From a virus (lineage: Duplodnaviria > Caudoviricetes): a DNA stretch of 64,000 bases. The notes under the pieces were generated by a model. That model was not told the origin of the DNA, ran no database searches, and was given only the letters and a program-made list of their open reading frames with translations. The stretch is from IMG/VR virus record IMGVR_UViG_3300005739_000025; one strand, 5' to 3'. A program made the translations under genes and the position numbers. Below, one piece after another: positions 1 to 58,199 of this stretch; the first letter of the stretch is position 1, and each line of letters starts with the position of its first letter.

Positions 1-2401
1 TACTTCCAAACTCATCTAGTGATTCTATTTCATATCTTACCGTAGTTATGTTTTGCCCCGCATTATATGTTCTGGATAAGGGGTTAAATGTTCCTATAGC
101 CAAACTGGTCTTATTACCGAGACCGCTTATATCAAATACAGTGATTGGATTCGGTGTTGAATAATCGCCAGAAATTTTAAATTCTACATTTTTTGTGCCC
201 GGTATGCCTCTTACTGAGGAAGCTATTGTTGGAAGAATGTTATTTAAAGATTCTATATTATTTTTTATTTTGCCTCTTTTACTGCGACTAGTGATTTCAA
301 AACGTCCGGGTACATTTCCCGTACGCATGTAAGCTTTGCTATTTACATTATTATTATAAATCTCATGAAAATATATTATTTTGCCCTTATTAGATCTTAT
401 GCCATATCTTATTTTACCAGCACCATACCAAGAATAATCTATGAATATCATCTGCATTCTATTAAGATCAACAACATACCCTGAAGGTCCGGTTCCGTCG
501 AGTTTATCTAAATTAAAATCTTTTTGACGGGTTCTAAGTTCTTCTGTTTTATTTACAACAACGCTATTTATAGTTGGTCCTCTATAATAAGGGGCAATGT
601 TTAAATTATTATCGTCTATAATTTTATTAACAAGATATGACTGACCCATTATAACTATAAAATCCCCCTCCGTTAATTGGGATTTAAACCTGCAATTACC
701 ATCAAAAGAAGACAGTAAAGGATTACCTAGAGTAGCAGTGACAGTACCTGCTAATGGAGTGGTACTCTGTCTTTTTACAACATAAAGATCTTTTCCATCG
801 TATTCAAAAAATATACCGTTTTGTTCATCAAATAAACCTGATCTTACAGTGGCATCATTAAAACTTTTAACTCTAACTAATCCAATACCTCCGGGGTTTA
901 AGATACTTGTGGGGAAGGGATTGTTATCACTTGCCAAAAGTCTTACTTTAAATTGCTTTGCATTTACAACTTCAGAAACTGGGAAAAACCCATTATATGG
1001 ATTTCTAGGAGCCGGGGCACTTAGTTCAAAACCAACTGTCTCTATGTAAGCTGATTCTCTGTATTCATCAGGCTTAGAAAACCCATGAAATTGTACAGTA
1101 TCAATAATAAAATCGTAGAAATTATAGCCTCTTGAAACAGTATTAACGGCTGTTAAATCTACTGCCAGTGTACCTTCCAATTGAACCCAGTTCCCCACAG
1201 ATATAGAAGAAATTGGAGTAGATGTATTTTGATAAGTGTTTGCACTTAATGATGAATCCCATAAGGTCCAAAATTGTGTATCACTTCCATTTCCAGAAAG
1301 ATAAATTTGATTACTACTAGGACCATAAAATACGGTAGATTGATTGGTTTGATAAGAAGAATCTATATCATAATCTCTTTCATAAGTACCATTTGAAGAA
1401 TCTTCCACCCCAGAAATTATAATTTTAGATACAAATTGGCTATTATTATATTGAACAGTATCTACCTCTGTCTTGTTAATTTCATATACTGGTAAAAAGA
1501 GAATACCAGTACTAAATTGTACAGATTTTCCGGATTGATATTTAAAATATTTTCTTGTTTGTCTTAAAATTTGTGCATTGGGAGCGGAAGTACCGGGATT
1601 AATCTGTACCCCACCATCAAAATAACGATGCACTGCAATACCCTCAGTTCTTGCATATACTAAACCAGAAGCTGGTACAATCTGAGTTGTAGTAGGAAAC
1701 GGCGATGTGACATTTGTTATATAAGTGGCACTAGTTTCAGATAAAATAGTATTAATATTAAATGTACCACAATAACGAGCCGTAGGTTGGTTAGGATCTG
1801 CAATAATGATTGGTGAATTTTTAAATAAACCGTGAGGGTATTTAAAATCTATGATTGCCGCACTTGTACCCGCAATACTTGTTATTTTATTAATAGGAAT
1901 ATTGACATTTGAAAATAACCCACCCGTAAACAAAGCTGTATAGGGTGTTTTTTGATCCCCCACTAAAGCGACAGGCGACTTGGTTGTAATTATAAACTTA
2001 AATTGGGATGGTACTTCTGTAATAACATATGCACCATCTACAAACGTAGTGTTTAAAGAATCTTTAATTACAATAGAATCTCCGGTTCTAAAAGGTATAC
2101 GAGGAACAATATTAACAGTTACTTCCACATCTTTATTATCGGGACCTGTGGGTAAAATAGAAGTAATTTGTGATGAAGAAAAAGCTGGCTCATTGGCACG
2201 GGCATATACTCCGGGATAGTTATTGCTTGTAGTTAAAAATTCCCATTTAGAAGACTGTAAAGAATACTCAAAGTCTGTATCTATTAAACTTTGAGGGTTT
2301 GAGACTCTAAACTTTTCAACCGCATCTTTGGATGAGTCAACAGGCTCTACGCCATGATTGGCGAGAGTTCTCAAGTAATCTAAATTTGTTTCAAAAGCCA
2401 T
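1..2401 (-). CDS. Large virion structural protein, 3'-truncated by the window edge (>=800 aa); missing from the ORF track
   Basis: Manual translation from ATG at 2401 (MAFETNLDYLRTLANHG...KFRVSNPQSLIDTDFEYSLQSSKWE...RQTRKYFKYQSGK...IDYSWYGAGKIRYG) is open to position 1. These motifs are typical of large structural proteins of aquatic T4-like phages. The frame stays open for 25 more codons upstream, to 2476. Confidence 0.85.
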   Translation of the reverse strand, partial: MAFETNLDYLRTLANHGVEPVDSSKDAVEKFRVSNPQSLIDTDFEYSLQSSKWEFLTTSNNYPGVYARANEPAFSSSQITSILPTGPDNKDVEVTVNIVPRIPFRTGDSIVIKDSLNTTFVDGAYVITEVPSQFKFIITTKSPVALVGDQKTPYTALFTGGLFSNVNIPINKITSIAGTSAAIIDFKYPHGLFKNSPIIIADPNQPTARYCGTFNINTILSETSATYITNVTSPFPTTTQIVPASGLVYARTEGIAVHRYFDGGVQINPGTSAPNAQILRQTRKYFKYQSGKSVQFSTGILFLPVYEINKTEVDTVQYNNSQFVSKIIISGVEDSSNGTYERDYDIDSSYQTNQSTVFYGPSSNQIYLSGNGSDTQFWTLWDSSLSANTYQNTSTPISSISVGNWVQLEGTLAVDLTAVNTVSRGYNFYDFIIDTVQFHGFSKPDEYRESAYIETVGFELSAPAPRNPYNGFFPVSEVVNAKQFKVRLLASDNNPFPTSILNPGGIGLVRVKSFNDATVRSGLFDEQNGIFFEYDGKDLYVVKRQSTTPLAGTVTATLGNPLLSSFDGNCRFKSQLTEGDFIVIMGQSYLVNKIIDDNNLNIAPYYRGPTINSVVVNKTEELRTRQKDFNLDKLDGTGPSGYVVDLNRMQMIFIDYSWYGAGKIRYGIRSNKGKIIYFHEIYNNNVNSKAYMRTGNVPGRFEITSRSKRGKIKNNIESLNNILPTIASSVRGIPGTKNVEFKISGDYSTPNPITVFDISGLGNKTSLAIGTFNPLSRTYNAGQNITTVRYEIESLDEFGS

Positions 2402-2476
2402 TGACCCTTTCCCGTTGACACTTCCGCCAACTAGACTAACTAATACATTGCTGTATCTTTCAATAAATGATGTTAG

Positions 2477-2680
2477 CGACTTTTCTTATAAATTTCTTTA
2501 TAAATCGGACTATATCTTCAGATTTTATTCTGTCGGACGCTCTTGCTGGTTATTAAGACAAACCTTTTTGTCTCCAGTAGTCTCTACACCTTCCATAAAA
2601 TGGTTTATGGCTTGGCTCGGTATTGCCATCTCTACTACGCAGAGGAAGGTTTCACCGAATTCATCCGATTAGGGCCTGTA
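2477..2680 (-). ncRNA. Group I self-splicing intron/ribozyme core, ORF-less, with P7.1 extension and no P2
   Basis: Minus strand shows P3 UCGGAUG(2668-2662)/CGUCCGA(2539-2533); P element AAUUCGGUGAAAC; Q element GGCAAUACCGAGCCAAG; P6a CCAUAAA/UUUAUGG; R element GAAGGUGUAGAGACUA; P7.1 CUGG..AGACAAA/UUUGUCU..CCAG; P8 CAGA/UCUG; S element AAGAUAUAGUCC; P9 UUAUAAA-GAAA-UUUAUAA; P9.0 GAU/GUC followed by omega-G at 2477. Confidence 0.9.
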
Positions 2681-2687
2681 TGTTTAT

Positions 2688-2695
2688 TATTTATT
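2688..2695 (-). promoter_or_regulatory. Late-promoter-like AATAAATA overlapping the upstream stop codon, just 5' of the ribozyme guide sequence
   Basis: The same GAATAAATA stop/promoter overlap precedes the genes starting at 4405 and 6097 on this strand. Confidence 0.5.
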
Positions 2696-3869
2696 CTAGT
2701 GCAGTATTACCTCCTTTGTACCATCGTGTAGTCACGATTCTAGTACGTTGTGCAAAAGTAACTGTATCAAAATCTCCTACAGGGTTACTTTTAGCAAGTT
2801 TACCAATTCTATATACTCTTCCTTTTTGTCTACGAGTATAAAAAGGTTTTGGTGAGAACCATTCCACATTATGCAAATTATAGCCTCTATAGTTTGGAAC
2901 ATTATTACCGTAAAAAACTATACCATTAACTCCATCATCATGACACATATTTTGCATATATCTCCAAACAACCTCTACAAAAACTATTTCATATTCTTGT
3001 AGTTCTACACCCTTAAAACATTTAAATAAAAATTCATCAGATAAACAATCCGGTCTGCCATCTAAAGTTGTGTATGCATAAGTACCATTTCCATCATGTC
3101 TTTGTAGCCATTGATGTGTCATCCATTTATATGGATAAAGAGGCATAAGCCCGCCCTGAGCATCTTTATTTTTTATAGGCCATTGATTTAAATTAGATAT
3201 TGTATTGTTATTAAACCATTGTTTATTTTCAATTTCAACTCTACCGACTAATTCGGGATCAGAACCACCAATAGGTTCATTAGGATTACCGCGAAATGTC
3301 CATACAATACCGTTAAGAGTGCTTGCTTCTCTTAATGGAACGGTTGTTGAACTTGAATAGGCGGTAATATTAAAAGCTCCTCCAGGCGGGGTAGGTGGGA
3401 TTGTTGCTGGTCTTGTCTTCCATTCCCATCTTGTTAATGCTGTATTATAATTAATAATAGAGTTAGCATTATATACAAATGTTTCTTTACTAACTGTAGA
3501 ATCTAAATTAACTTTTCCTTTAGATTTAAAATCTAACTGCACAGGATATGCGGAAAGTGTTGGTACGTTAAAGGAATTGGGTACAATAATTTTTAAAAAC
3601 GTTTGGTTGGGGGTGCTATTGTTTCCACCATTTCTCTGACCCATTCTAGTCGCTAAGTATTCAAAAGTACCCTTGTTATATCTAAAAATATATCTTCTTA
3701 ATCCAGATTTAGTTGACTTACCAGCTTTTCTCCTACTACTCAATTTTCCATGTATTTGATCGTTTAAATCTCCGGGATAAATTAATACTTGTTTTTTACC
3801 TTTAAAAATAGGAGGCAAGGGTTCTTTATTTTCACTACCCACAAATAATCTGTAATCTATATTGTTCAT
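2691..3869 (-). CDS. Hypothetical protein, probably virion-associated (392 aa)
   Basis: ORF track; lies in a co-oriented structural cluster; no GIY-YIG, HNH or LAGLIDADG motif seen. Confidence 0.75.
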   Translation of the reverse strand: MNNIDYRLFVGSENKEPLPPIFKGKKQVLIYPGDLNDQIHGKLSSRRKAGKSTKSGLRRYIFRYNKGTFEYLATRMGQRNGGNNSTPNQTFLKIIVPNSFNVPTLSAYPVQLDFKSKGKVNLDSTVSKETFVYNANSIINYNTALTRWEWKTRPATIPPTPPGGAFNITAYSSSTTVPLREASTLNGIVWTFRGNPNEPIGGSDPELVGRVEIENKQWFNNNTISNLNQWPIKNKDAQGGLMPLYPYKWMTHQWLQRHDGNGTYAYTTLDGRPDCLSDEFLFKCFKGVELQEYEIVFVEVVWRYMQNMCHDDGVNGIVFYGNNVPNYRGYNLHNVEWFSPKPFYTRRQKGRVYRIGKLAKSNPVGDFDTVTFAQRTRIVTTRWYKGGNTALE

Positions 3870-4416: not shown

Positions 4417-5385
4417 TTATTCTGTTGTATAGGTGATTGTTAAAAACAATGTGTCAGGGGCAGGGGTGTATGTTATAGAAGTTGAACTACCAACCACCCA
4501 CAAAGGACTGACAGGTATACCATCAGGAAATGTTATATCAAAATTACTTTCCGATTCAACGGAATACGTAAATAGTAATTTCGAATTTGCTCCTGTTAAA
4601 TTATTACTGCCTGTCCATATTTGCAAGTATACTCCTGTACCCGGCAACGAAGGATCTTCGGTTGTATTAATACCCTTTATATTTTTTAAGAACCCAGTTA
4701 AACCATTAAAATCGGTAAAATATTTGCTTGTTAACTCCGTAGTTGCAACCGTTGTATATGCTTTAGGAATTAGATAAGAGGTATTTGAATCGCTGGAAGA
4801 GAGAAGAAAATTAGTAGTTTTTATTAAACTTTCAATTTCATTAGTGTTAAGATTGACTGAAGATATATCAATGTTAAATGTATCTTGTTTCGCTGTTAAA
4901 CTATTAAGAAGACTTATTAAAGTATCTTGCTTAGCACTTGTTGCGAAGTTTTTAGCAGTTAAATTATCTAGTCTAGTATTAGAACTATTAATTAATGACT
5001 CTATATTATCGGTGTTTAAATTTATAGCGGATACGTCTAAGCTTATTGTAGTGTCTTTAGATGTTAAAACGTTTAATAAAGTATTTGTATTATCTAAATT
5101 TAATTTAACAGATAATAAAGTGTCCTCTTTTGTGGGCACTACATAGTCTTCTATAAAAATTTGTAATCTATCCGTATTAGACATTGATGTAGTGTCATAT
5201 TCTAAAGTAAGTACATTACCTGCTAATGTACCACCTAAATTATTACACGCAAAATTATAAATTATTTCATTATCAGTTACATTTGTTATTAAAAGAATTT
5301 GATCTAACTTTATTGATGGGTAATCTGTTAGAGTTACCTGTTTGCTTGATGCTGAAAAAATATAATTTGTTACAAGTGTTTTCAT
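4417..5385 (-). CDS. Virion structural protein with LLITNVTDNEIIYNF N-terminal module
   Basis: N-terminal module recognised from aquatic T4-like phage structural proteins; TATAAATA at 5392-5399. Confidence 0.7.
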   Translation of the reverse strand: MKTLVTNYIFSASSKQVTLTDYPSIKLDQILLITNVTDNEIIYNFACNNLGGTLAGNVLTLEYDTTSMSNTDRLQIFIEDYVVPTKEDTLLSVKLNLDNTNTLLNVLTSKDTTISLDVSAINLNTDNIESLINSSNTRLDNLTAKNFATSAKQDTLISLLNSLTAKQDTFNIDISSVNLNTNEIESLIKTTNFLLSSSDSNTSYLIPKAYTTVATTELTSKYFTDFNGLTGFLKNIKGINTTEDPSLPGTGVYLQIWTGSNNLTGANSKLLFTYSVESESNFDITFPDGIPVSPLWVVGSSTSITYTPAPDTLFLTITYTTE

Positions 5386-6902: not shown

Positions 6903-7847
6903 TTACTGACCCATTGCTTTTTGGGTGTAATATTTCGGATTAATTAATACCGGTGGTAACATTTCATAGTGTGTAGCTCTTGTTGGATTAATATCTAACG
7001 AACCTCTACGTGAATAAAGCAAAGTTACACAACAAGAATCTACCTCTGGACACTTCATTATTTCAGTATAGAGTTTTTCTGCACAAAACTCATGAAATTC
7101 GTTTACCTCTCTTAAGGACACTATTTGTTTAAATAGAGATGCAGGTTTAATCACACTGTCAATTGTGTTTATTGAGATATAGGCAGCCCCTGTATCTTTC
7201 TGTTTGGTATGACGACAACGTGATCTCAAAGCGTTTGTGAAGAATTTATTAGCATATAAAGCTTTATCATCTTTAATTGAGTAACCGTAGCCAGAATAAT
7301 TAGCTTTTTCAAACTCTAAGTGGTTTTGCACTGCGTTGTAATCTGTAATTTCTAATGCTTCTATATCTCTGCCAAGAAAGCTTTGCAAGTCAAGATAGCC
7401 TGCCATAGGAAAAATAGCATTAATATCATCCCCTGATTTAAAGAACTTAACATCCACTTCTGTCTCTAAAGCTTTCTCTAAATCTGTTTTTACTTGTAGC
7501 TCGTAATTATGAATGGCTGTCTCAACTGACTGACCCATCTTACACATATCAAATGTATTAAGATAGAGCTTAGCAGACTTAGACTCAACCATATATTTTG
7601 AGTCTGAGGAATAGGTATATTTTAAAGTCCCGGCAATAGGTGCACCGTTGTTAAGTAAAAAAGTAGCCTCATGACAGTGCCATGTATCATATCCAACAAA
7701 TTCATCGCCTTTAATATTCCAACCATCACGGGCTAGTTTACGAGGCATGGGATTAAGAAGTGAAGCATCGTGCCGGTCAGTATAAACTGCATACGACGCT
7801 GAAGAACCTAACGATTTAGAAGCTATATCTGTTAAATTTTCACTCAT
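6903..7847 (-). CDS. queF: NADPH-dependent preQ0 reductase (long-form QueF)
   Basis: VESKSAKLYLNTF, LRSRC (catalytic Cys), HEFCAE, YSRRGSLDINPTR motifs. Confidence 0.9.
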   Translation of the reverse strand: MSENLTDIASKSLGSSASYAVYTDRHDASLLNPMPRKLARDGWNIKGDEFVGYDTWHCHEATFLLNNGAPIAGTLKYTYSSDSKYMVESKSAKLYLNTFDMCKMGQSVETAIHNYELQVKTDLEKALETEVDVKFFKSGDDINAIFPMAGYLDLQSFLGRDIEALEITDYNAVQNHLEFEKANYSGYGYSIKDDKALYANKFFTNALRSRCRHTKQKDTGAAYISINTIDSVIKPASLFKQIVSLREVNEFHEFCAEKLYTEIMKCPEVDSCCVTLLYSRRGSLDINPTRATHYEMLPPVLINPKYYTQKAMGQ

Positions 7848-17044: not shown

Positions 17045-17098
17045 ATCTATATTTATATGTAAATATCAGTACTATTTTATAAATAATTTGTATATTAT

Positions 17099-45213: not shown

Positions 45214-45242
45214 AAAGCCATTTTATAAATAACTAATAATAA

Positions 45243-46419: not shown

Positions 46420-46911
46420 ATGGGTAATAATATTGCATCAACATTTGTACAAAGATTAAGACGAAGCGGCCTAGGCACCACCCTAGTATCCCAGACATCA
46501 ACCACACCACCTTTATTTTTAGATCCCATTGATATTCCAGGTGTTGTAAGAGCTTATGTAGTTTTTGATGGATATACATTGCCTAATAGAATTTGTAATA
46601 TCATAAAAAAATCTACTAACGTTAATGGAGTAACAGCACAATCCTTAAGAGGGGATTATTTAATAGAATTTTTACCAGGTACATTTTCTGATAGAGATTA
46701 TTTTGTTTCAGGTAATGTATATGCAGATTCTACAGACCCAATAAGCGCTGCAAATACATTTTTTGTTAAAGGATCTGGCTATAGCATGTCAGGCTTTGTT
46801 ACAACAGGTCAACAACAAACAGAAACATTTTTACGTATTCAAACATTAAATCAAACAAACACAGCATTACCTGCTTATGCGAGAAGAGTATCTCTATTAT
46901 TTTATAAATAA
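46420..46911 (+). CDS. Tail fibre-associated protein
   Basis: RAYVVFDG...S.NV..VT....GDY.I.F pattern. Confidence 0.65.
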   Translation: MGNNIASTFVQRLRRSGLGTTLVSQTSTTPPLFLDPIDIPGVVRAYVVFDGYTLPNRICNIIKKSTNVNGVTAQSLRGDYLIEFLPGTFSDRDYFVSGNVYADSTDPISAANTFFVKGSGYSMSGFVTTGQQQTETFLRIQTLNQTNTALPAYARRVSLLFYK

Positions 46912-50290: not shown

Positions 50291-50361
50291 GCGGGTATAT
50301 CATAGTGGTAATGAGTCTGCTTGCCAAGCAGATTAGAGGAGTTCGATTCTCCTTACCCGCT
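50291..50361 (+). tRNA. tRNA-Gly(GCC)
   Basis: GCGGGTA/TACCCGC acceptor; loop TTGCCAA; TTCGATT T-loop. Confidence 0.9.
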
Positions 50362-50417
50362 TTTTTACAGTCCCGGGGTAATCCCTCTTAACAATGGATC
50401 CCGGGTAAGATTTCAAT

Positions 50418-50488
50418 GCCTGGTTAGTTTAATGGTAAAACGGTTGATTTGTAATCATCTGACGTCAGTTCGATTCTGTCACTGGGCT
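50418..50488 (+). tRNA. tRNA-Thr(TGT)
   Basis: Loop TTTGTAA; TTCGATT T-loop. Confidence 0.85.
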
Positions 50489-50501
50489 CATTTTTTTTTA
50501 T

Positions 50502-50577
50502 TGCGGAGTCGACAAGGGGTTAAGTCAGAAGTCTCATAAGCTTCTATGCGCTGGTTCGAATCCAGCCTCCGCAACCA
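50502..50577 (+). tRNA. tRNA-Met/Ile2(CAT)
   Basis: Loop CTCATAA; encoded CCA; lacks initiator GGG/CCC anticodon stem. Confidence 0.85.
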
Positions 50578-50582
50578 TTTTT

Positions 50583-50666
50583 ATGTCCGCTCACAAGTGG
50601 GATTGTAGACGGTCTCCAAAACCGTTGTCGTTTGACTAAGGGGTTCGATTCCTCACGGACATGCCA
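50583..50666 (+). tRNA. Atypical tRNA with CCA anticodon (Trp) and a variable arm
   Basis: Loop CTCCAAA; 6-bp anticodon stem; GTC/GAC variable stem; GCCA end. Confidence 0.75.
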
Positions 50667-50670
50667 TTTC

Positions 50671-50741
50671 GCGGTGGTAGTATAATAGTAGTACAGGAGT
50701 CTTCCAAACTTCGGGCCTCGGAGCGTAACCGTGTCACCGCA
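50671..50741 (+). tRNA. tRNA-Gly(TCC)
   Basis: Loop CTTCCAA; atypical T-loop AGCGTAA. Confidence 0.8.
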
Positions 50742-50775
50742 TTTGATTTTACGTTATAATATACTATAATAAATT

Positions 50776-51540
50776 ATGTTTTTTAAGAAAACCAAAACAC
50801 CCTATATAAAGTTTATTCCCATAGTCGAGGGTTTAAAAGAATTTATCCCCATAATACCAGCTAAAAGTTATTTACCTGATTGGTGGGAAAAAATAAACAT
50901 AAACGAAAATGTTAAATTTGCTAATAAACGTCCTGTTTCTACTGGTACAGTTAGAAAATGTCCAGGTATAATGGATTTTTTAAAAACAGGCTATATTATA
51001 CCCGCCTGGACTGATATATATATTACAGTTAAAGGTAGAGAAAGTATAGAATTTGAACTATCCGATAAAAGATTTAATGCTCGTATACACAGCAATGATC
51101 AATTTTTAAACTATATACCTGAACATTCAAAAACAGAGTATCTTTGGACTTTGAAGTTACAGAGTCCTTGGTTTATACAAACCCCACCAGGTTATAGTGT
51201 TATGTATATAAACCCGTATTATCACTTTAACAAATATTATGATATTGCCCCTGGTATACAAGATACAGATATATATCATGATTCCAACCAATTTTTGTTA
51301 ATTAAAAAAGAAGGAGAATTTTTAATAGAACGAGGTTCTCCACTTAGCATAGTTTTTCCTTTTAAACGAGAAGACTATGACTTTACGATGGAAGATTATG
51401 ATTTTTTTAAAACAGAGAAATATAAATCTAGAGAAGAATTTGTATCGTTTTCAAAATTTTCATCAATGCTTTCTTATAAAAAAGAACAACAAAAACAAAG
51501 AAAATGTCCTTTTTTATGGAATCATAGCTCAATCGGTTAG
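50776..51540 (+). CDS. Conserved hypothetical protein, paralog 1 (PAK..P.WW..KCPG..DFL..G.I.PAWTD)
   Basis: ORF track; clear paralogy to 54109-54840; 3' end overlaps tRNA-Asp. Confidence 0.8.
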   Translation: MFFKKTKTPYIKFIPIVEGLKEFIPIIPAKSYLPDWWEKININENVKFANKRPVSTGTVRKCPGIMDFLKTGYIIPAWTDIYITVKGRESIEFELSDKRFNARIHSNDQFLNYIPEHSKTEYLWTLKLQSPWFIQTPPGYSVMYINPYYHFNKYYDIAPGIQDTDIYHDSNQFLLIKKEGEFLIERGSPLSIVFPFKREDYDFTMEDYDFFKTEKYKSREEFVSFSKFSSMLSYKKEQQKQRKCPFLWNHSSIG

Positions 51541-51591
51541 AGCACTGCCCTGTCACGGCAGGGGTTGCGAGTTCGAGTCTCGTTGATTCCG
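51518..51591 (+). tRNA. tRNA-Asp(GTC)
   Basis: GGAATCA/TGATTCC acceptor; loop CTGTCAC. Confidence 0.9.
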
Positions 51592-51596
51592 TGAAT

Positions 51597-51671
51597 GTCT
51601 GTGTAGTGTAATAGAGAGCACGAGAAGCTACGAACTTTTTAGTGTGGGTGCAAATCCTGCCATAGACACCA
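51597..51671 (+). tRNA. tRNA-Arg(ACG)
   Basis: Loop CTACGAA; T-loop TGCAAAT; encoded CCA. Confidence 0.85.
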
Positions 51672-51678
51672 TTTTAAC

Positions 51679-51755
51679 GCTCTGGAAGCTAAAGTAGTCG
51701 AAGCGTTAGTCTGCAAAACTTTCATTAGTCGGTGCGAGTCCGACCCAGAGCTCCA
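51679..51755 (+). tRNA. tRNA-Cys(GCA)
   Basis: Loop CTGCAAA; U73-CCA; T-loop TGCGAGT. Confidence 0.85.
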
Positions 51756-51762
51756 TTTTATA

Positions 51763-52023
51763 GATCTGGCCGTAGCAAATGATATCCAGATCAGGGTGTG
51801 TTCCCTTTGCCTGTTAGTGTGTTGGGGGTGCTCATCTGGGCTAGTCGAGCTAGGCTACATAAAGCTATGACGCTATGCATTAGTACAACACAGGCTATTG
51901 GACGGAAGTATCTGGCTCCAGGCCAGACTCCGTTAAGGAAGGGACAAAATCCGGAACAAAACCCTTCAGCACTAATAATTTAGTAGACCCGTTATGCCTC
52001 TTAGCAATGCACACTTAACGGGT
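51763..52023 (+). ncRNA. Unidentified ~260-nt highly structured RNA within the tRNA array
   Basis: GC-rich, no credible ORF; nested stems GATCTGG/CCAGATC, AGGGT/ACCCT, TGTTCC/GGAACA, GCCT/AGGC, GTGTTG/CAACAC, ACGGA/TCCGT, TCTGGC/GCCAGA, ACCCGTTA/TAACGGGT. Confidence 0.65.
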
Positions 52024-52028
52024 ATTTT

Positions 52029-52099
52029 CCCTCCTTAGTATAGTAGCATTACAATCGGTTGATAACCGATAGAACTAGGGGCAGTACCTAGAGGAGGGA
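52029..52099 (+). tRNA. tRNA-Ile(GAT)
   Basis: Loop TTGATAA; atypical T-loop GGCAGTA. Confidence 0.8.
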
Positions 52100-52102
52100 C
52101 TA

Positions 52103-52129
52103 TTGACTTTTCAAAAGGCGTGATATAAT
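52103..52129 (+). promoter_or_regulatory. Sigma70-like early promoter (TTGACT...TGnTATAAT)
   Basis: Similar TTGA-N15-17-TAyAAT/TACTAT motifs precede genes at 50776, 59848, 60712, 62550 and 63172. Confidence 0.6.
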
Positions 52130-52135
52130 TACTTT

Positions 52136-52351
52136 ATGTACGAGACCGATCTCACATATAAGAGAAAAAAATATAAAATTAAAATAAAAACCATTTTCGA
52201 GGTAGGGGATGGTAAAGAACATTATGATTTAGAAGTCTCAACAAATAAAAGAATGTCTGGTAATGAATTTTTAGCGCTAAGAAAATATCTAGAAGATGAG
52301 GGTTATATAGAACAAGCAAGAATTTATAATGAGGAACTTTATGCCGATTAA
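52136..52351 (+). CDS. Hypothetical protein
   Basis: ORF track; promoter upstream. Confidence 0.65.
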   Translation: MYETDLTYKRKKYKIKIKTIFEVGDGKEHYDLEVSTNKRMSGNEFLALRKYLEDEGYIEQARIYNEELYAD

Positions 52352-52493
52352 AGATTGGACAAAAATGACTAAAGATGAACTCTTATATACCTTTGAATGG
52401 GCACAAAAAATAGGTTTTCACTTTTTAGCTAAAGAAGTGTATAATCAATTAAAAGTTAAGGGTCTCATTAAAGAGGATAAGAGCGAAAAATAA
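52341..52493 (+). CDS. Hypothetical 50-aa protein (MPIKDWTKMTKDELL...); missing from the ORF track
   Basis: Manual translation; fills the gap before tRNA-Pro. Confidence 0.55.
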   Translation: MPIKDWTKMTKDELLYTFEWAQKIGFHFLAKEVYNQLKVKGLIKEDKSEK

Positions 52494-52497
52494 TTTA

Positions 52498-52569
52498 CGG
52501 GCACGAGGAAGATAGTAATCCGCCAGTTTTGGGAACTGGAAATACTCGGGGCGGAACCGAGGTGCCCGA
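52498..52569 (+). tRNA. tRNA-Pro(TGG)
   Basis: CGGGCAC/GTGCCCG acceptor; loop TTTGGGA; T-loop GGCGGAA. Confidence 0.85.
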
Positions 52570-52572
52570 TTT

Positions 52573-52647
52573 CGCTGCTTAGCTGAGATAGATTAGCACG
52601 AGTCTGAAGAACTTGATAGGTTGGAGCGTTACCAACAGCAGCGGCCA
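52573..52647 (+). tRNA. tRNA-Phe(GAA)
   Basis: Loop CTGAAGA; T-loop AGCGTTA; encoded CCA. Confidence 0.8.
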
Positions 52648-52650
52648 TTT

Positions 52651-52726
52651 TTGGAGCAACCACAAACCCACTGGTATTAGGCGTTGAGAGTAATTGGAAA
52701 GCGCTCTCGAGTAAGTCCTGCTCCAA
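52651..52726 (+). ncRNA. Unidentified tRNA-sized structured element A
   Basis: TTGGAGCA/TGCTCCAA closing stem; ACCA/TGGT and GAGAG/CTCTC arms. Confidence 0.5.
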
Positions 52727-52736
52727 TTTTTTAAAC

Positions 52737-52808
52737 GTGGCTCGTGGTGTAATAGAAGCATTAGAGATTGTGACTCTCTCGGTGAGGGGGCAGAACCCTT
52801 CGAGCCAA
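52737..52808 (+). tRNA. tRNA-His(GTG)
   Basis: Loop TTGTGAC; G-1 present but opposite A rather than C; T-loop GGCAGAA. Confidence 0.8.
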
Positions 52809-52848
52809 TTTAGTAGAAAAAAACATTTTTTATTATATAATTCTTTTT

Positions 52849-53550
52849 ATGCGCATTTTATCTATTGATATGGATTTTATCACAACTAGATATGGGCAAT
52901 ATATTATAAACAATTATGATGAGGTTTATAATAAAAATGCCAATATGCATTGGGAAAATATTAGACTACAGTATGGTGACATACACGAGGATTTTAAACC
53001 TGATATTCAAAATTTAGTTTATATATTCGAAGTTTTTTCTAATGCGATTTTGAATAGTAAAAAAGTAGTTTTTAGCAATTATCATGACTGTATTCTAAAT
53101 GAATTAGATTTTAATAAAACTCATTCAATTATTAATATAGATCATCATCACGATTTGTTTTATTTTAACTCACAAAAAGAAAAAGTAGAAAGATATAGTG
53201 TCGTAAGTGATGCTGATTGGGTATGGTATCTATTAAAAAATAATTATTTGATGTCCTATACCTGGATTCACAACCCAACATCTTCTATGCCTAAAGATTC
53301 ATTTTATAGTGACGATAAAAGGATGATTTGTAAGTTTTTATTAAAAGGAGATTACACCTTTAAAAGCTATGATTTCGATTTAGTTTTTGTATGTTTAAGT
53401 CCTATTTATATAAGTCCTATACACTGGCATTATTTTGAACTGCTTAAAGTAATATATAAAAATACTCTAAAAAAAGATTTAATAATAAACAATAAAAGAT
53501 ACGAAATCGATTTTCAAATTGGTTTAAATAATTCTGGGTCATTCTTGTAA
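52849..53550 (+). CDS. Arginase/ureohydrolase-fold (UPF0489-like) protein
   Basis: ILSIDMDF, HD.I, INIDHHHD, W...L, DLVFVCLSP.Y. Confidence 0.7.
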   Translation: MRILSIDMDFITTRYGQYIINNYDEVYNKNANMHWENIRLQYGDIHEDFKPDIQNLVYIFEVFSNAILNSKKVVFSNYHDCILNELDFNKTHSIINIDHHHDLFYFNSQKEKVERYSVVSDADWVWYLLKNNYLMSYTWIHNPTSSMPKDSFYSDDKRMICKFLLKGDYTFKSYDFDLVFVCLSPIYISPIHWHYFELLKVIYKNTLKKDLIINNKRYEIDFQIGLNNSGSFL

Positions 53551-53551
53551 A

Positions 53552-53617
53552 TGGAGCCGACATTCCAATGCTATTGGTTGAGATTAACCCTGGAGCGTCG
53601 CGGGTAAACTTGCTCCA
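53552..53617 (+). ncRNA. Unidentified structured element B
   Basis: TGGAGC/GCTCCA, CGAC/GTCG, TCCA/TGGA and GGTT/AACC stems. Confidence 0.45.
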
Positions 53618-53624
53618 CTTTTTT

Positions 53625-53708
53625 AGACACACTGACAGAAATGTCTTGGGCGCATGTGCCGCTACAGACTCGTAAGAGTTCATTGAAAGTTATAGCACAA
53701 GTGTGTCT
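53625..53708 (+). ncRNA. Unidentified multibranched element C
   Basis: AGACACAC/GTGTGTCT, GAC/GTC, GGC/GCC, GCTA/TAGC and GACTC-GTAA-GAGTT. Confidence 0.5.
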
Positions 53709-53712
53709 TTTC

Positions 53713-53784
53713 GGGGAATTAGTTAAGTGGCTATAACTCCTGATTTGCATTCAGGTGTCACCGGTTCGACTCCGGTATTCTCCA
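53713..53784 (+). tRNA. tRNA-Ala(TGC)
   Basis: GGGGAAT/ATTCTCC with G3:U70; loop TTTGCAT. Confidence 0.9.
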
Positions 53785-53791
53785 TACTTTA

Positions 53792-53873
53792 GCTCTAGTG
53801 GTGAAATTGGCAGACACGACAGACTTAGGATCTGTTGCTTTACGGCATGGGGGTTCGAGTCCCTCCTGGAGCA
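53792..53873 (+). tRNA. tRNA-Leu(TAG)
   Basis: Loop CTTAGGA; long variable arm. Confidence 0.9.
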
Positions 53874-53879
53874 TATTTT

Positions 53880-53966
53880 GGAAGTGTGGCCGAGCGGTTT
53901 AAGGCAGAAGTTTACTAAACTTCCGAGGTATCCATTCCTCCGTGGGTTCGAATCCCACTGCTTCCA
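53880..53966 (+). tRNA. tRNA-Ser(ACT), rare A34 anticodon
   Basis: GAAGT-TTACTAA-ACTTC; long variable arm; Ser-type D-arm. Confidence 0.8.
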
Positions 53967-53982
53967 TATTAATAATTTTTAT

Positions 53983-54074
53983 GGGCAGATGGCTGAGTCC
54001 GGTCTAAGGCGTCCGACTTGAAATCGGAAGTGGGGGAAACCTCACCGTGGGTTCGAATCCTACTCTGCCCGCCA
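53983..54074 (+). tRNA. tRNA-Ser(TGA)
   Basis: Loop CTTGAAA; variable arm; GCCA end. Confidence 0.9.
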
Positions 54075-54108
54075 TTGAATTTTAAAAATTATAAGTTAAA
54101 ATAATATA

Positions 54109-54840
54109 ATGTTTAATTTGTTTAAAAAGGAAATAGAATTTTTTCCAACAACTTTAGAAATAGATAAAGTAGCTCCTATTGTTCCAGCTAGCAAATTTCT
54201 CCCAAAATGGTGGACGGATATTGATCCAAATAAACATGTAAATTTAGTAAATAATGTACCTGTTATAAGAGGCAATATTAAAAAATGTCCAGGTGTATCA
54301 GATTTTTTAACTAAGGGTTTTATATTACCCGCCTGGACAGATTTTTATTTTTGCTATGAAAATGGTAAAATGAAAAAAATCTCATCGTTACAATCCCACG
54401 GAATAATACACCAACCAGACACATCATTTATTGATTTTTTACCAGATAATATAAAATTTAAAAAACCCATTTCATATAAATTATTAACCCCCTGGCTTAT
54501 CAAAACCCCTCCCGGCTATAGCAGTTTAATTTTAAACCCAACATTTCATTTTAACGATAATTTCGACACTATGCCCGGTATACTCGATACCGACATTTTT
54601 CATACCCTATCTATTGAAATTCTAGTTAAAGAATCAAAAACTTTTACTATACCTTTTAACACTCCATTATGTATAATAGTTCCTTTTAAAAGAAATAAAT
54701 TTAAATATAAAATTAATTTAAATAAAGCAGTAATGGAGAAATTGTCTTCTCTTTCAAATCTTATATCTTTTGCAAAATTTTCTTCTAGCGCTATGTATAA
54801 TTATGTAAGAAGATCAAAATGCCCTTTTAATAATAAATAA
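54109..54840 (+). CDS. Conserved hypothetical protein, paralog 2
   Basis: Shares KCPG.SDFL.KG.I.PAWTD, W.I.TPPGYS, PG..DTDI.H and KCPF with 50776-51540. Confidence 0.8.
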   Translation: MFNLFKKEIEFFPTTLEIDKVAPIVPASKFLPKWWTDIDPNKHVNLVNNVPVIRGNIKKCPGVSDFLTKGFILPAWTDFYFCYENGKMKKISSLQSHGIIHQPDTSFIDFLPDNIKFKKPISYKLLTPWLIKTPPGYSSLILNPTFHFNDNFDTMPGILDTDIFHTLSIEILVKESKTFTIPFNTPLCIIVPFKRNKFKYKINLNKAVMEKLSSLSNLISFAKFSSSAMYNYVRRSKCPFNNK

Positions 54841-54844
54841 TTTT

Positions 54845-55102
54845 ATGAATTTTGAAATTTTAATAAATGACTTATTAAAAAAGAATTATAAAATTAATGA
54901 GCAGTTAGCTAAAGGTAAAACTTTAGAAGATATATCTAAAGAGACAGAAACATCAAAAGAAATATTAAATAAAGAACTTAAAAAAGGAATAGAAATAGAA
55001 AAAGAACATACACCATCAGAAAAAAAAGCTAAAACCATAGCTAAAGATCATCTTATTGAAAATCCTAAATATTATACTAAATTAAAGAAAGTAGGATTAT
55101 AG
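54845..55102 (+). CDS. DUF5661-like protein
   Basis: GIEIEKEHT...IAKDHL.E.P.YYTKL. Confidence 0.75.
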   Translation: MNFEILINDLLKKNYKINEQLAKGKTLEDISKETETSKEILNKELKKGIEIEKEHTPSEKKAKTIAKDHLIENPKYYTKLKKVGL

Positions 55103-55176
55103 ACCCTGTAGTGTAATGCAAAGCACGTTATGCATATAGCATAAAGATAGAGGTTAGAATCCTTTCAGGGTCGCCA
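55102..55176 (+). tRNA. Atypical tRNA with TAT anticodon (Ile-AUA type) or pseudo-tRNA
   Basis: GACCCTG/CAGGGTC-GCCA; TTATG-CATATAG-CATAA (A33, C32:G38); T-loop TTAGAAT. Confidence 0.65.
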
Positions 55177-55902
55177 TTAATTGTTTTTAGTCGCAAAATT
55201 ATTCCACCTTTCTGTATTACTTAATTCCTGCTTGGAGTTTAACTCTACATGTCCATCAAAATAAGCCACTACGGCTTTATTATTATACCTATAATCTACC
55301 TCCCCGACAGCTCCTCTAGTTTCAGGACCCGCCACATCAAAACACCCCCTATGTTCTGCTCCTTCCATTTTACTAATCGCAAATACAACTAGTTTAGAAG
55401 GTTCATTAACCTGAGTGATATTAGTTACTACTGATTTATTGCCTCTATCTGGTGAAACAGGAGTACCGTACTTACCCCCAACATAAGTACCATTCATACC
55501 AAATGTTGTAAAAACTGTTACTAGATAAGAATACATACTATCATCTGGAGGAGCAGCTTTCTGATTGTTAACCATTAAGATGTTAATACTATAATCTATA
55601 TAAGGCGCAAGTCTCCATGGCCATCTTTTTGCAGCATGGGACATGACTGGCTTACCTTTATCGTCTAATACTTTACCTGGTTTAGGGTCCATAGCTTTAA
55701 TTAATCGCCCTCCATTATCAGCTGCGTAAGCATGAAACCCTGCCATTAATGCTCTACCTGCATGAACCTCTCTTCCCTTTTCAGCAGATTTTATATAACT
55801 AGAATAACCTGAAAAACCAATAGCAGCTAAAATGGTTATAACTGCTATAGATACTAATAGTTCAATTAACGTAAAAGCCCTTGCATATCTTAAAAAGTTC
55901 AT
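55177..55902 (-). CDS. Prepilin-type N-terminal cleavage/methylation protein with H-X9-DG-like C-terminus
   Basis: RAFTLIELLVSIAVITILAAI and YRYNNKAVVAYFDGHVE. Confidence 0.9.
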   Translation of the reverse strand: MNFLRYARAFTLIELLVSIAVITILAAIGFSGYSSYIKSAEKGREVHAGRALMAGFHAYAADNGGRLIKAMDPKPGKVLDDKGKPVMSHAAKRWPWRLAPYIDYSINILMVNNQKAAPPDDSMYSYLVTVFTTFGMNGTYVGGKYGTPVSPDRGNKSVVTNITQVNEPSKLVVFAISKMEGAEHRGCFDVAGPETRGAVGEVDYRYNNKAVVAYFDGHVELNSKQELSNTERWNNFATKNN

Positions 55903-55918
55903 ATATTATATATATACT

Positions 55919-56680
55919 ATGAAAATATTATTTCTAGGAATTACATATTTTTTTACTTTAATTTCTATTCTACACTCTCAAATTATTACTGTAAATATGG
56001 GAGGAACTACTAGTTTTTCTTCTTGGTCTAATATAAATTCTTTTAACTATTCAGGCTACGGCTCATTTCCAGGAAACACTCCATGGCCTGCACCTATAAG
56101 AGCTACACAAGGTTCAACAAATTCAACTTTAAATAGAGTTACTGGTTCCCCAACAGGTGGAGGACCATTTCTAGCATCAGAATCAATATATTTTGGCAAT
56201 TTCAGTCAAATTCCAAATGCATTAGGAGGAACACTTAGACTGTCTAATTCTATTTCTTTAACAAATATTAAAACTCTTGTACTGCAAATACAAATAGGAG
56301 AAGCAACAGGGTATGATTTCTTTACACCTACTGGTTTTCCTAAACTCTCTTTAAACGGAATAACAAATTTTGCTGCTTACACCAATCTTGTTAATAGATA
56401 TCAAAATGGTACATTTCCTAGTCCTGAAACAGGGTTAGATGAACCCGTATATGTTAATACATGGGCGTACCAATGGAAAATTACAAATGCATCAGTAAAC
56501 AGCTATTTTGTAGATTTTAGCGCGGTAACACACGCCCAGGTCTACAACATCAGATGGGATAGCTCTTCCATGGCATATAACACGCCAGTTATTCCTGAAC
56601 CATCTACTATTGGTTTGCTGGCCTTTAGCGCTGCTGGGTTTGCCGTTTACATTTATAGAAAGAGAAAAAGAAGTAAATAG
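55919..56680 (+). CDS. PEP-CTERM sorting-domain secreted protein (253 aa)
   Basis: Signal peptide MKILFLGITYFF...; C-terminal VIPEPSTIGLLAFSAAGFAVYIYRKRKRSK. Start moved from 55832 to ATG 55919. Confidence 0.9.
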   Translation: MKILFLGITYFFTLISILHSQIITVNMGGTTSFSSWSNINSFNYSGYGSFPGNTPWPAPIRATQGSTNSTLNRVTGSPTGGGPFLASESIYFGNFSQIPNALGGTLRLSNSISLTNIKTLVLQIQIGEATGYDFFTPTGFPKLSLNGITNFAAYTNLVNRYQNGTFPSPETGLDEPVYVNTWAYQWKITNASVNSYFVDFSAVTHAQVYNIRWDSSSMAYNTPVIPEPSTIGLLAFSAAGFAVYIYRKRKRSK

Positions 56681-56699
56681 CAGCATAATAAATAATTAA

Positions 56700-57409: not shown

Positions 57410-57434
57410 ATAGGTATTTTAAATATAATACACC

Positions 57435-58066: not shown

Positions 58067-58125
58067 AACATTTATATTTATACGAGCACTTCTAATAAAT
58101 GAACAGGTCTGAATTAATAATTTAC

Positions 58126-58199
58126 GGGGGGTTGTTGTAATGGTAGCGATTCGCGTTTACACCGCGACAGAAGAGGTTCGATCCCTCTACCCCCTACCA
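58126..58199 (+). tRNA. tRNA-Val(TAC)
   Basis: Loop TTTACAC; ACCA end. Confidence 0.9.

What the first reader, a model, noticed from the sequence alone, without database searches (positions are those of the whole stretch)
2404..2695. Group I ribozyme in a permuted layout, predicted to circularise a 73-nt RNA
Seen: a complete group I core (P3-P9) with no intron ORF lies between two virion genes. It begins a few nt after an AATAAATA late-promoter-like motif, so a transcript from that motif would start almost at the guide sequence with no 5' exon. The 3' splice site GUCG|CUAAC (2477/2476) is supported by P9.0 (GAU/GUC) and a 2-bp P10 (AG/CU), as in the T4 td intron. The guide GGCCCU (2676-2671) pairs over all six bases with AGGGUC (2408-2403), with the U.G wobble at the scissile position, and this site is 73 nt downstream of the 3' splice site. 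Known: the order guide-core-omegaG-exon-target U is the design of engineered group I RNA-circularisation constructs; natural permuted introns I know of are group II. Inference: guanosine attack at AGGGU|CAAUG followed by ligation would give a circle 2476->2404 with junction AAAGGGU/CUAACAUC, and a processed mRNA starting G-CAAUG, with the AUG of the >=800-aa gene 3 nt from its 5' end.
Basis: partly seen in the sequence, partly recalled or inferred. Interest (0 to 1): 0.92.

Follow-up and report, generated by a model that had tools for sequence, protein, structure and literature searches.

The report
Naturally permuted group I ribozyme
A large phage carries a self-splicing-type RNA enzyme whose parts are in a rearranged order, so it should cut the message just ahead of a virion gene and release a small RNA ring instead of joining two gene halves. 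Related phages keep this layout, which was previously known only from engineered constructs, group II introns and one coral mitochondrial intron.

Summary
Rfam finds a full-length group I core at 2486-2718(-), 74.6 bits. It lies between the stop codon of a 392-aa ORF and the ATG (2401) of a virion structural gene.

Fifteen distinct related loci carry the same ribozyme at the same place. In all of them the guide NGCCC pairs with GGGU-N' downstream of omega-G, 0-12 nt before the start codon.
- RNAalifold predicts this long-range helix on its own.
- The flanking pair covaries (G-C 11, U-A 3, C-G 1, none broken), with at least three independent double changes.
- P9.0 covaries and omega-G is kept.
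- The 31-93 nt linker is non-coding but keeps a common hairpin architecture.

No upstream 5' splice site exists, and cis-splicing of the two ORFs is rejected. Other IMG/VR phage contigs, including cultured Flavobacterium phage immuto, show the same permutation in unrelated contexts. One group shows a different break, in P2.

Catalysis, the circle and the processed mRNA are inferred. No RNA data could be found. The searched literature holds no natural phage example. Unchecked first-reader notes of this scan report similar orphan ribozymes elsewhere in this genome and in another genome.

The parts
2688..2695 (-). AATAAATA, a late-promoter-like motif 11 nt upstream of the guide. It overlaps the TAA stop (2693-2691) of the upstream ORF.
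   Evidence: Read. The ATAAATA motif is enriched more than 30-fold in the 30 nt upstream of ORF starts in this window. It is exact in L004, L007, L008 and L102 and only approximate in the other relatives.
2672..2676 (-). Internal guide sequence (the 3' strand of P1), GGCCC. G2675 makes the G.U wobble with U2404. G2676 pairs with C2403 in P1, and with C2476 in the proposed P10.
   Evidence: GCCC is invariant in 15 loci. The 5' neighbour covaries with the nucleotide after the target U.
2486..2671 (-). Group I catalytic core, with no P2. Elements: J1/3 UAA, P3 (2668-2663 with 2538-2533), P4-P6, P7 (2582-2578 with 2512-2508), a P7.1/7.2-type insert, P8, and P9 with a GAAA loop (2503-2486).
   Evidence: Rfam RF00028, 74.6 bits, full model. 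RNAalifold recovers P3, P4, P5, P6, P7.1/7.2 and P8, with 21 covarying pairs.
2477..2480 (-). 3' strand of P9.0 (GUC 2480-2478, pairing with GAU 2506-2504) and omega-G 2477. The 3' splice site lies between 2477 and 2476.
   Evidence: Pair types across the family are GAC/GUC, AAC/GUU, GAU/GUC, GAC/GUU and AAU/AUU, each followed by G.
2404..2476 (-). 73-nt non-coding linker, the predicted circular product. It has a closing stem CUAAC/GUUAG that starts at its first nucleotide, an internal loop with UUUAUUGAAAG, an inner hairpin, a second hairpin and a single-stranded tail ending AAAGGGU.
   Evidence: Folds of all 15 linkers show the same architecture with compensatory changes. Linkers are 31-93 nt. 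They are not coding: 11 of 15 have a length that is not a multiple of three, and 9 of 15 have in-frame stops.
2403..2407 (-). P1 substrate strand GGGU|C. The predicted guanosine attack is between U2404 and C2403.
   Evidence: GGGU is invariant in 15 loci. The helix is predicted by RNAalifold without prompting. The site lies 0-12 nt upstream of the ATG in every locus.
2..2401 (-). Virion structural protein gene (phrog_5838), running off the window. It corresponds to the body of the family and lacks the family's N-terminal domain.
   Evidence: phrog_5838, E 4e-125. It is 36% identical to S-PM2 p173, starting from about that protein's residue 96.
2691..3869 (-). 392-aa ORF of unknown function. 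It is complete, with its own stop codon, and always lies directly upstream of the ribozyme.
   Evidence: No Pfam, PHROG or phage tblastn match. Homologues precede the ribozyme in every related locus.
5116..5385 (-). N-terminal domain of the phrog_5838 family, encoded here at the start of a separate 322-aa fibre-like ORF (4417-5385). It is preceded by TATAAATA at 5399-5392.
   Evidence: phrog_5838 profile positions 8-93. In ribozyme-less relatives L010, L011, L014 and L015 this domain is contiguous and in frame with the body.

Best explanation
This is a natural circular permutation of a group I ribozyme, opened in the P1 loop. The order on the RNA is guide, catalytic core, omega-G, 3' splice site, structured linker, then the substrate strand GGGU with the 5'-splice-site U.

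Shown by comparison:
- The guide pairs with the downstream GGGU-N'.
- P9.0 and omega-G are maintained.
- The flanking ORFs are separate, complete genes.

Inferred from established group I chemistry:
1. Free guanosine or GTP attacks after U2404. The transcript is cut 2 nt before the AUG of the virion gene, and the downstream mRNA starts G-CAAUG.
2. The new 3'-OH of U2404 then attacks after omega-G 2477 and closes the 73-nt linker into a circle.
3. The ribozyme stays on the 3' end of whatever RNA lies upstream.

The likely consequence (more speculative) is a near-leaderless mRNA. Late promoters appear to give this phage's other late genes the same kind of 5' end, and its host seems not to use Shine-Dalgarno sites. 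The unit sits at the 3' edge of a roughly 2.7-kb gene block that splits an ancestrally single structural gene.
For: - Rfam full-length hit, 74.6 bits.
- Six IMG/VR loci found through the downstream protein all carry the ribozyme at the same place.
- Seven further members came from a metagenome scan whose pattern contains neither the guide nor the target.
- In the alignment of 15 distinct loci, GCCC and GGGU are invariant while the sequence between them varies in length and content.
- RNAalifold places columns 15-19 with 323-327 as the outermost helix. Pair 15:327 is GC 11, UA 3, CG 1, with none broken.
- Only 0.024% of column shuffles reach 15/15, and slid registers give 2-11 of 15.
- On a tree of the core, the non-GC states fall in separate clades, which implies at least three double changes.
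- P9.0 covaries, and the first linker nucleotide pairs with the guide's 5' neighbour in 14 of 15 loci.
- No RGGGYY lies upstream on this strand for more than 4 kb.
- The linker is non-coding but structurally conserved.
- The cleavage site lies 0-12 nt before the ATG in all 15 loci.
- SD-like motifs occur before only 5 of 56 ORFs.
- The same layout recurs in unrelated contexts, with a compensatory P1 change between L001 and L056. A P2-split version (L025/L055) has an intact P1 hairpin downstream.
Against: - No biochemical or transcript evidence exists: no RNA run was listed.
- P1 is short, at 5 bp.
- P10 is only 1-2 bp, competes with the linker's closing stem, and fails in L098.
- The 15 loci are related, so shuffle statistics overstate independence.
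- The link to a start codon is not general. In phage immuto the target is followed by a terminator-like hairpin, so the selected product (cut mRNA, circle, or ribozyme-tailed upstream RNA) is not settled.
Confidence: 0.62

Rival explanations
1. The layout is the same, but only the first step matters. The ribozyme is a cis-acting, guanosine-dependent endonuclease that makes the 5' end of the virion-gene mRNA. The linker is released linear or stays attached, and any circle is incidental.
For: The target lies 0-12 nt from the ATG in all 15 loci. Linker sequences are poorly conserved between subfamilies. P10 is minimal and competes with the linker's closing stem.
Against: Omega-G and a covarying P9.0 are maintained, which the first step does not need. 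Three kinds of permuted unit were seen: next to a start codon, followed by a terminator, and split in P2. The only product all three share is the excised linker.
Confidence: 0.2
2. This is an ordinary cis-splicing intron that fuses the 392-aa ORF to the downstream virion gene (the alternative noted as e1-5318462).
For: In the window, the 75 nt from the 3' splice site to the ATG are open and in frame. The Rfam model aligns a nominal P1 at 2714-2695.
Against: That P1 is marked as mispaired by cmscan. The base after the conserved GGAGG is U, G or A in different loci, so no conserved U.G site exists. The upstream ORF ends in a conserved stop. The distance from the 3' splice site to the ATG is a multiple of three in only 4 of 15 loci, and 9 of 15 carry in-frame stops.
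Confidence: 0.02
3. This is a decaying, inactive intron relic left in an intergenic spacer. The guide/target match is coincidental or serves only as a structure that masks the start codon.
For: No homing endonuclease gene and no interrupted gene are present. A single 6-nt match is unremarkable in one sequence.
Against: The core is almost invariant in loci whose flanking protein is only 52-75% identical. There are 21 covarying pairs across the structure. Compensatory changes occur in P1 and P9.0. The layout recurs in unrelated contexts.
Confidence: 0.08
4. The ribozyme splices in trans or over a long range. It would join the N-terminal-domain exon at the start of ORF 4417-5385 to the downstream gene and so rebuild the ancestral single protein.
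For: The protein family is a single gene in ribozyme-less relatives and is split here exactly where the ribozyme sits.
Against: No GGGU or RGGGYY site lies near the end of the N-terminal domain, or anywhere on this strand between 2409 and about 7000. The ORF carrying the N-terminal domain runs on for 230 further residues to its own stop. The linker would have to be translated, and in most loci it cannot be.
Confidence: 0.03

Closest known systems
Phage group I introns of the T4 td / nrdB / nrdD type (subgroup IA with P7.1/P7.2), and the standard introns with a near-identical core found here in tRNA, nrd-like and terminase-like genes (e.g. L069, L066, L099)
   Same: They share the catalytic core, the G-binding P7, the P7.1/7.2-type insert, P9.0 plus omega-G, and a U.G pair at the cleavage site.
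   Different: Standard members have the substrate strand upstream, a P2 hairpin, and exons that form one gene. Here the substrate strand is downstream of omega-G, P2 is absent, and the flanks are two separate genes.
[quoted passage not shown]
   Same: The order is guide, core, omega-G, insert, target U. The predicted products are a circle of the insert plus a linear ribozyme.
   Different: Those are laboratory designs with long coding inserts. This one is natural and conserved, and it has a short structured non-coding insert next to a start codon.
Natural circularly permuted group II ribozymes of bacteria (Roth et al. 2021, PMC8637638)
   Same: The splice sites are in reverse order and separated by a short linker. 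That paper predicts circles of 15-86 nt and describes a stem-loop in the linker. The biological role is unknown.
   Different: They belong to a different ribozyme class with different chemistry (branching adenosine, no guanosine cofactor). They are bacterial and plasmid-borne, not phage-borne.
ND5-717 group I intron of corallimorpharian mitochondria (Chi et al. 2019, PMC6545197)
   Same: It is a natural group I ribozyme acting on a permuted precursor by back-splicing, with a circular exon RNA.
   Different: There the gene order is standard on a circular genome. The permutation arises at transcript level through an 18-19 kb insertion in P8, and the circle is a coding intermediate. Here the permutation is written in the DNA, the break is in the P1 loop (or in P2 in L025/L055), and the circle is small and non-coding.
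GIR1 lariat-capping ribozyme of twin-ribozyme introns (from my own knowledge)
   Same: It is a group I-derived ribozyme placed directly upstream of an ORF, and its cleavage creates the 5' end of that mRNA.
   Different: GIR1 has no P1 guide/substrate helix and uses no exogenous G. It caps the mRNA with a 3-nt lariat. The present RNA keeps P1 with U.G, P9.0 and omega-G.

Membership tests
Group I ribozyme (Rfam RF00028) | Conserved core P3-P9 with the P7 guanosine-binding helix | tested here: met
   74.6 bits against a gathering score of 50, full model. P3, P4, P5, P6 and P8 are supported by covariation in 15 loci.
Group I ribozyme (Rfam RF00028) | P1 helix between an internal guide and a substrate strand, with a U.G wobble at the cleavage site | tested here: met
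   G.U is present in 15 of 15 loci, alongside three invariant G-C pairs and a flanking pair that covaries GC/UA/CG. The substrate strand lies downstream of the core, not upstream.
Group I ribozyme (Rfam RF00028) | Terminal omega-G preceded by P9.0 | tested here: met
   A G follows a 3-nt strand complementary to the 3 nt after P7. Five pair combinations are seen.
Group I ribozyme (Rfam RF00028) | Guanosine-dependent transesterification activity | not testable with these tools
   No RNA run was listed. It needs in vitro transcription with labelled GTP.
Group I intron in the strict sense (an intervening sequence) | Interrupts one gene, and exon ligation restores a continuous product | tested here: not met
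   The upstream ORF has its own conserved stop. There is no upstream U.G site. The linker is non-coding in most loci.
Permuted intron-exon / self-targeting circularising layout | 3' splice site upstream of the 5' splice site on one transcript, with the guide able to reach the downstream site | tested here: met
   The order guide, core, omega-G, linker, GGGU is found in 15 loci. A P2-split variant occurs in L025/L055.
Permuted intron-exon / self-targeting circularising layout | Formation of a covalently closed linker RNA | not testable with these tools
   It needs RNase R treatment, divergent-primer RT-PCR or junction reads.
GIR1 lariat-capping ribozyme | No P1 and no exogenous G; branching reaction with the DP2-DP10 architecture | tested here: not met
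   A P1 with U.G and a standard P9.0/omega-G are present. The GIR1-specific helices were not searched separately, and no GIR1-type family reached its gathering score in the Rfam scan of the window.
Circularly permuted group II ribozyme | Group II domains in the order D5-D6-D1-D4 | tested here: not met
   The only Rfam ribozyme or intron family matched in the window is Intron_gpI.

The most novel reading that the evidence does not exclude
Phages of SD-poor aquatic hosts carry a whole class of genomically permuted group I ribozymes with at least two break points (P1 loop and P2 loop). These act as stand-alone RNA-processing cassettes. They excise 18-93 nt structured RNA circles and leave a guanosine-tagged, near-leaderless mRNA, which could carry a 5' triphosphate if GTP is the cofactor. 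The ribozyme would then act as a portable substitute for a promoter-made 5' end, or the circles would themselves act during infection.
Probability: 0.45. Interest if true: 0.9.

Novelty: new variant of a known kind. Interest (0 to 1): 0.85.

Why it matters
Group I ribozymes are textbook self-splicing introns. Rearranging them to make RNA circles has been a laboratory technique since the 1990s and now underlies circular-RNA therapeutics. A natural, conserved, DNA-encoded permuted form in phages would show three things.
- Evolution reached the same design.
- A group I ribozyme can be used for mRNA processing or small-circle production, and not only for removing itself from a gene.
- Small natural scaffolds exist (about 190 nt of ribozyme with an 18-93 nt insert) that could be used for circular-RNA engineering.

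It also gives a testable answer to what 'orphan' intergenic group I hits in phage genomes are. The cultured Flavobacterium phage vB_FspM_immuto offers an experimental system.

Tried and rejected
- The window's whole genome is not held, so the second orphan ribozyme reported by other first-reader notes could not be examined.
- Two searches for sequencing runs listed no RNA holder. DNA holders shared only the conserved core.
- A generic scan for the best guide/target helices upstream versus downstream in 46 ribozyme loci was uninformative. AT-rich flanks give many spurious 5-8 bp helices. I relied on fixed-register covariation instead.
- Pfam, PHROG and tblastn gave nothing for the 392-aa upstream ORF.
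- A scan of 185,579 prokaryote genomes with the core 21-mer found seven loci, all apparently standard introns.
- RF00028 searches of five related phage records found only the one copy in each.
- Five literature searches found no natural permuted group I ribozyme in phages or bacteria. Absence from the held library does not prove that none has been published.
- The count of structure pairs was not used, because it needs a long typed structure string. The equivalent counts were made in Python and by RNAalifold.

Full report
**1. What is in the sequence**

On the minus strand, a 392-aa ORF (2691-3869) ends with TAA at 2693-2691. An ORF of at least 800 aa starts at ATG 2401. Between them Rfam finds one full-length group I match:
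- It spans 2486-2718(-) over model positions 1-253, at 74.6 bits against a gathering score of 50.
- There is no ORF in it.
- The nominal P1 that cmscan places at 2714-2695 is flagged as mispaired.

- guide GGCCCU at 2676-2671
- P9.0 as GAU 2506-2504 with GUC 2480-2478
- omega-G at 2477
- target AGGGUC at 2408-2403
- a linker of 73 nt

Between the guide and P3 (UCGGAU 2668-2663 with GUCCGA 2538-2533) there are only three nucleotides, so there is no P2. In this one sequence the guide/target match is not significant. RGGGYY occurs about once per kb per strand, no more often than in shuffles. It is, however, the only such site on this strand from 2409 to about 7000, so no conventional upstream 5' splice site is available.

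**2. The genes around it**

The downstream protein belongs to phrog_5838, a virion structural protein family (E 4e-125). It is about 36% identical to cyanophage proteins such as S-PM2 p173, but only from about residue 96 of p173.

The missing N-terminal domain (profile positions 8-93) is encoded 2.7 kb upstream. It forms the first roughly 90 residues of a separate 322-aa fibre-like ORF (4417-5385).

- In the ribozyme-less relatives L010, L011, L014 and L015, the N-terminal domain and the body are contiguous in one frame.
- In every ribozyme-bearing locus, the ORFs directly upstream of the ribozyme are the 179-aa and 392-aa ORF homologues (the former not detected in L008). Where the contig reaches far enough, the fibre-like ORF lies further upstream. 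The body follows the ribozyme.

The ribozyme therefore marks the 3' edge of a gene block that splits an ancestrally single gene.

The window belongs to a large AT-rich (33.5% GC) myovirus-like phage. It encodes a portal, a baseplate hub, tail fibres, a ribonucleotide reductase and a cluster of 12 tRNAs. Shine-Dalgarno-like motifs precede only 5 of 56 ORFs.

**3. Relatives**

- A protein-based search of IMG/VR with the downstream protein returned 12 loci. The six closest (52-75% identity) all carry an RF00028 hit 60-100 nt upstream of the homologous ATG.
- A core 21-mer scan added L045.
- A metagenome scan used a pattern made only of P3-P4 and J6/7-P7 sequence, so it was blind to both guide and target. 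It added seven more distinct members.

This gives fifteen distinct loci (alignment A2).

**4. The guide/target pairing is real**

- In A2, GCCC of the guide and GGGU before the ATG are invariant. The 31-93 nt between omega-G and GGGU differ in length and sequence.
- RNAalifold, run on A2 without any constraint, places columns 15-19 with 323-327 as the outermost helix. There are three invariant C-G pairs and a G.U in 15 of 15 loci.
- The pair on the far side of the scissile bond is G-C in 11 loci, U-A in 3 and C-G in 1, with none broken.
- Shuffling one column reaches 15/15 in 0.024% of trials, and slid registers give 2-11 of 15.
- On a maximum-likelihood tree of the core, L006 (C-G) and L094 (U-A) fall in one starred clade, while L005 and L007 (U-A) fall in the other, next to G-C sequences. 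This implies at least three independent double substitutions.
P1 is therefore 5 bp.

**5. The 3' splice site is maintained**

- The three nucleotides after P7 pair with the three nucleotides before a G in every locus. The combinations are GAC/GUC, AAC/GUU, GAU/GUC, GAC/GUU and AAU/AUU, plus weaker variants.
- The first linker nucleotide pairs with the guide's 5' neighbour in 14 of 15 loci: C with G, and G with U or C. This fits a 1-2 bp P10. L098 is the exception.
- That same nucleotide also begins the linker's closing stem, so the P10 evidence is weaker than the P1 evidence.

**6. The linker**

The linker is not coding. The distance from the 3' splice site to the ATG is a multiple of three in only 4 of 15 loci, and 9 of 15 carry in-frame stops. 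This rejects the cis-splicing alternative in which the two ORFs are fused.

The linker does keep a common architecture:
- a closing stem that starts at nucleotide 1 and shows compensatory changes (CUAAC/GUUAG, CGCUC/GAGCG, CGCCC/GGGCG, CCAAC/GUUGG)
- an A/U-rich internal loop (UUUAUUGAAAG in one subfamily)
- a 5-6 bp inner hairpin
- often a second hairpin
- a single-stranded tail ending in GGGU

**7. Position relative to translation and transcription**

The predicted cleavage site is 0-12 nt upstream of the ATG in all 15 loci: 2 nt in the window and 0 nt in L094.

In the window, ATAAATA occurs 34 times on both strands. Fourteen of these lie within 30 nt upstream of ORF starts, against 0.45 expected, usually 6-13 nt from the ATG. 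This behaves like a T4-type late promoter that gives very short leaders. The comparison with T4 is from my own knowledge.

One copy, AATAAATA at 2695-2688, lies 11 nt upstream of the guide. The motif is exact in only some relatives, though, and it overlaps the conserved Leu-Glu-stop codons. Read-through from TATAAATA at 5399-5392 is equally possible.

Either way, cleavage would give the virion gene the kind of near-leaderless 5' end that other late genes seem to get from their promoters. This last step is inference.

**8. The layout is not confined to this gene**

Among 48 IMG/VR stretches that share the core 21-mer, many are standard introns in tRNA genes, nrd-like genes and a terminase-like gene. 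These have an upstream P1 and a P2 hairpin. Several others lack P2 and repeat the permuted order in unrelated flanks (coordinates):
- Flavobacterium phage immuto (L001) and L056. Guide GGUCCU or GGUCCA pairs with AGGAU|C or UGGAU|C, a compensatory change. The linker is 18-19 nt and is followed by a terminator-like hairpin.
- L046, L047, L062 and L043. GGCCC pairs with GGGU|C across a 21-22 nt covarying hairpin.
- L018, L023, L026 and L052. GCC pairs with GGU|AAA across a 19-20 nt covarying hairpin.
- L036 and L048.

L025 and L055/L030 show a different break. An intact P1 hairpin (GGGU, loop, GCCC) lies downstream of omega-G and a roughly 72-nt linker. It is followed by a strand that pairs over 16-27 bp, with covariation, with the sequence directly 5' of P3. 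This is a P2 split in its loop.

These units sit next to a start codon, before a terminator, or split in P2. The one predicted product they all share is the excised linker.

No permuted copy was seen in a scan of prokaryote genomes.

**9. Mechanism**

Shown: the topology and the selective maintenance of P1, P9.0, omega-G and the core.

Inferred from the standard two-step group I pathway:
1. Guanosine or GTP attacks after U2404. The downstream RNA becomes G-CAAUG...
2. The 3'-OH of U2404 attacks after G2477. This gives a 73-nt circle with the junction AAAGGGU/CUAACAUC and an upstream RNA ending in the folded ribozyme.

Which product is selected is open. I give 0.62 to the full two-step reading, 0.2 to a cleavage-only reading, and little to the relic, cis-splicing or trans-splicing readings.

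**10. Comparison with what is known**

- The chemistry and the core are those of phage IA-type introns.
- The order of parts is that of engineered self-targeting and PIE circularisation systems (PMC10457212, PMC10415121).
- The closest natural parallels are the circularly permuted group II ribozymes of bacteria (PMC8637638), which also have a hairpin-bearing 15-86 nt linker and an unknown role. [quoted passage not shown] In that case the permutation arises from a giant P8 insertion on a circular genome, and the circle is coding.
- It is not an intron in the strict sense, because the test for 'interrupts one gene' fails.
- Five full-text searches found no report of a DNA-encoded permuted group I ribozyme in phages or bacteria.

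I therefore rate it a new variant of a known kind.

Unchecked first-reader notes of this scan describe a second orphan ribozyme elsewhere in this genome (e1-5318501, e1-5318496) and a similar stand-alone one in another genome (e1-5348311).

Noticed in passing
L001:4954-5220 (Flavobacterium phage vB_FspM_immuto 2-6A, MW353175.1, about 144975-145300); L056:6079-6343: A cultured phage carries the same permuted layout in a different context. Guide GGUCCU pairs with AGGAU|C 18 nt after omega-G, and a terminator-like hairpin follows. L056 has the compensatory pair GGUCCA/UGGAU. The GenBank record annotates a 44-aa 'hypothetical protein' across the ribozyme core.
   Followed up: partly
L025:5924-6239 (-); L055:2646-2944 (+); L030 (same as L055): A second permutation topology. 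The P1 hairpin (GGGU, loop, GCCC) lies downstream of omega-G and a roughly 72-nt linker. It is followed by a strand that pairs over 16-27 bp with the sequence directly 5' of P3, which is a P2 opened in its loop. The duplex covaries between L025 and L055. A TATAAATA or AATAAATA motif lies directly upstream.
   Followed up: partly
L046:12310-12537, L047:362-589, L062:9497-9724, L043:176-402; L018:463-694, L023:5367-5597, L026:4400-4632, L052:2300-2531; L036:311-532; L048:11927-12146: Further P2-less ribozymes with a 19-26 nt hairpin linker between omega-G and a GGGU|C or GGU|AAA site complementary to the guide. The mini-hairpins covary within each group. The predicted circles would be only about 20 nt.
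   Followed up: partly
window 4417-5385 (-) and 2-2401 (-); L010, L011, L014, L015: The phrog_5838 structural gene is a single ORF in ribozyme-less relatives and in cyanophage S-PM2 (p173). Here it is split: its N-terminal domain of about 90 aa heads a separate fibre-like ORF, and two further ORFs and the ribozyme are inserted before the body.
   Followed up: yes
window, whole; e.g. 5399-5392(-), 4421-4414(-), 17078-17085(+), 35045-35038(-), 45224-45231(+), 46903-46910(+): ATAAATA (TATAAATA or AATAAATA) is enriched more than 30-fold in the 30 nt upstream of ORF starts, typically 6-13 nt from the ATG. This suggests T4-type late promoters that give near-leaderless mRNAs. SD-like motifs precede only 5 of 56 ORFs, as expected for a host that does not use SD sites (perhaps Bacteroidota; the host was not determined).
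   Followed up: partly
window 50291-58196 (+): A cluster of 12 tRNA genes found by Rfam, interspersed with small ORFs.
   Followed up: no
L004:2266-2677 (-): The closest related phage contig (IMGVR_UViG_3300027747_004779, 158 kb, classed as a provirus by IMG/VR) encodes a full-length tmRNA (86.9 bits) next to tRNA genes.
   Followed up: no
L069:1-300, L076: A standard group I intron with the same P3-P4 sequence (GGATGAATTCGG), an upstream P1 and a P2 hairpin. It interrupts what reads like the Walker A motif (GG..|GSGKS) of a terminase-like gene. This shows that conventional relatives of the permuted ribozyme circulate in the same kind of phages.
   Followed up: no
window 6903-7847 (-): A GTP cyclohydrolase homologue (phrog_5949, E 3e-52) heads a co-oriented gene run that another first-reader note (e1-5318464) reads as a 7-deazaguanine DNA-modification operon.
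   Followed up: no
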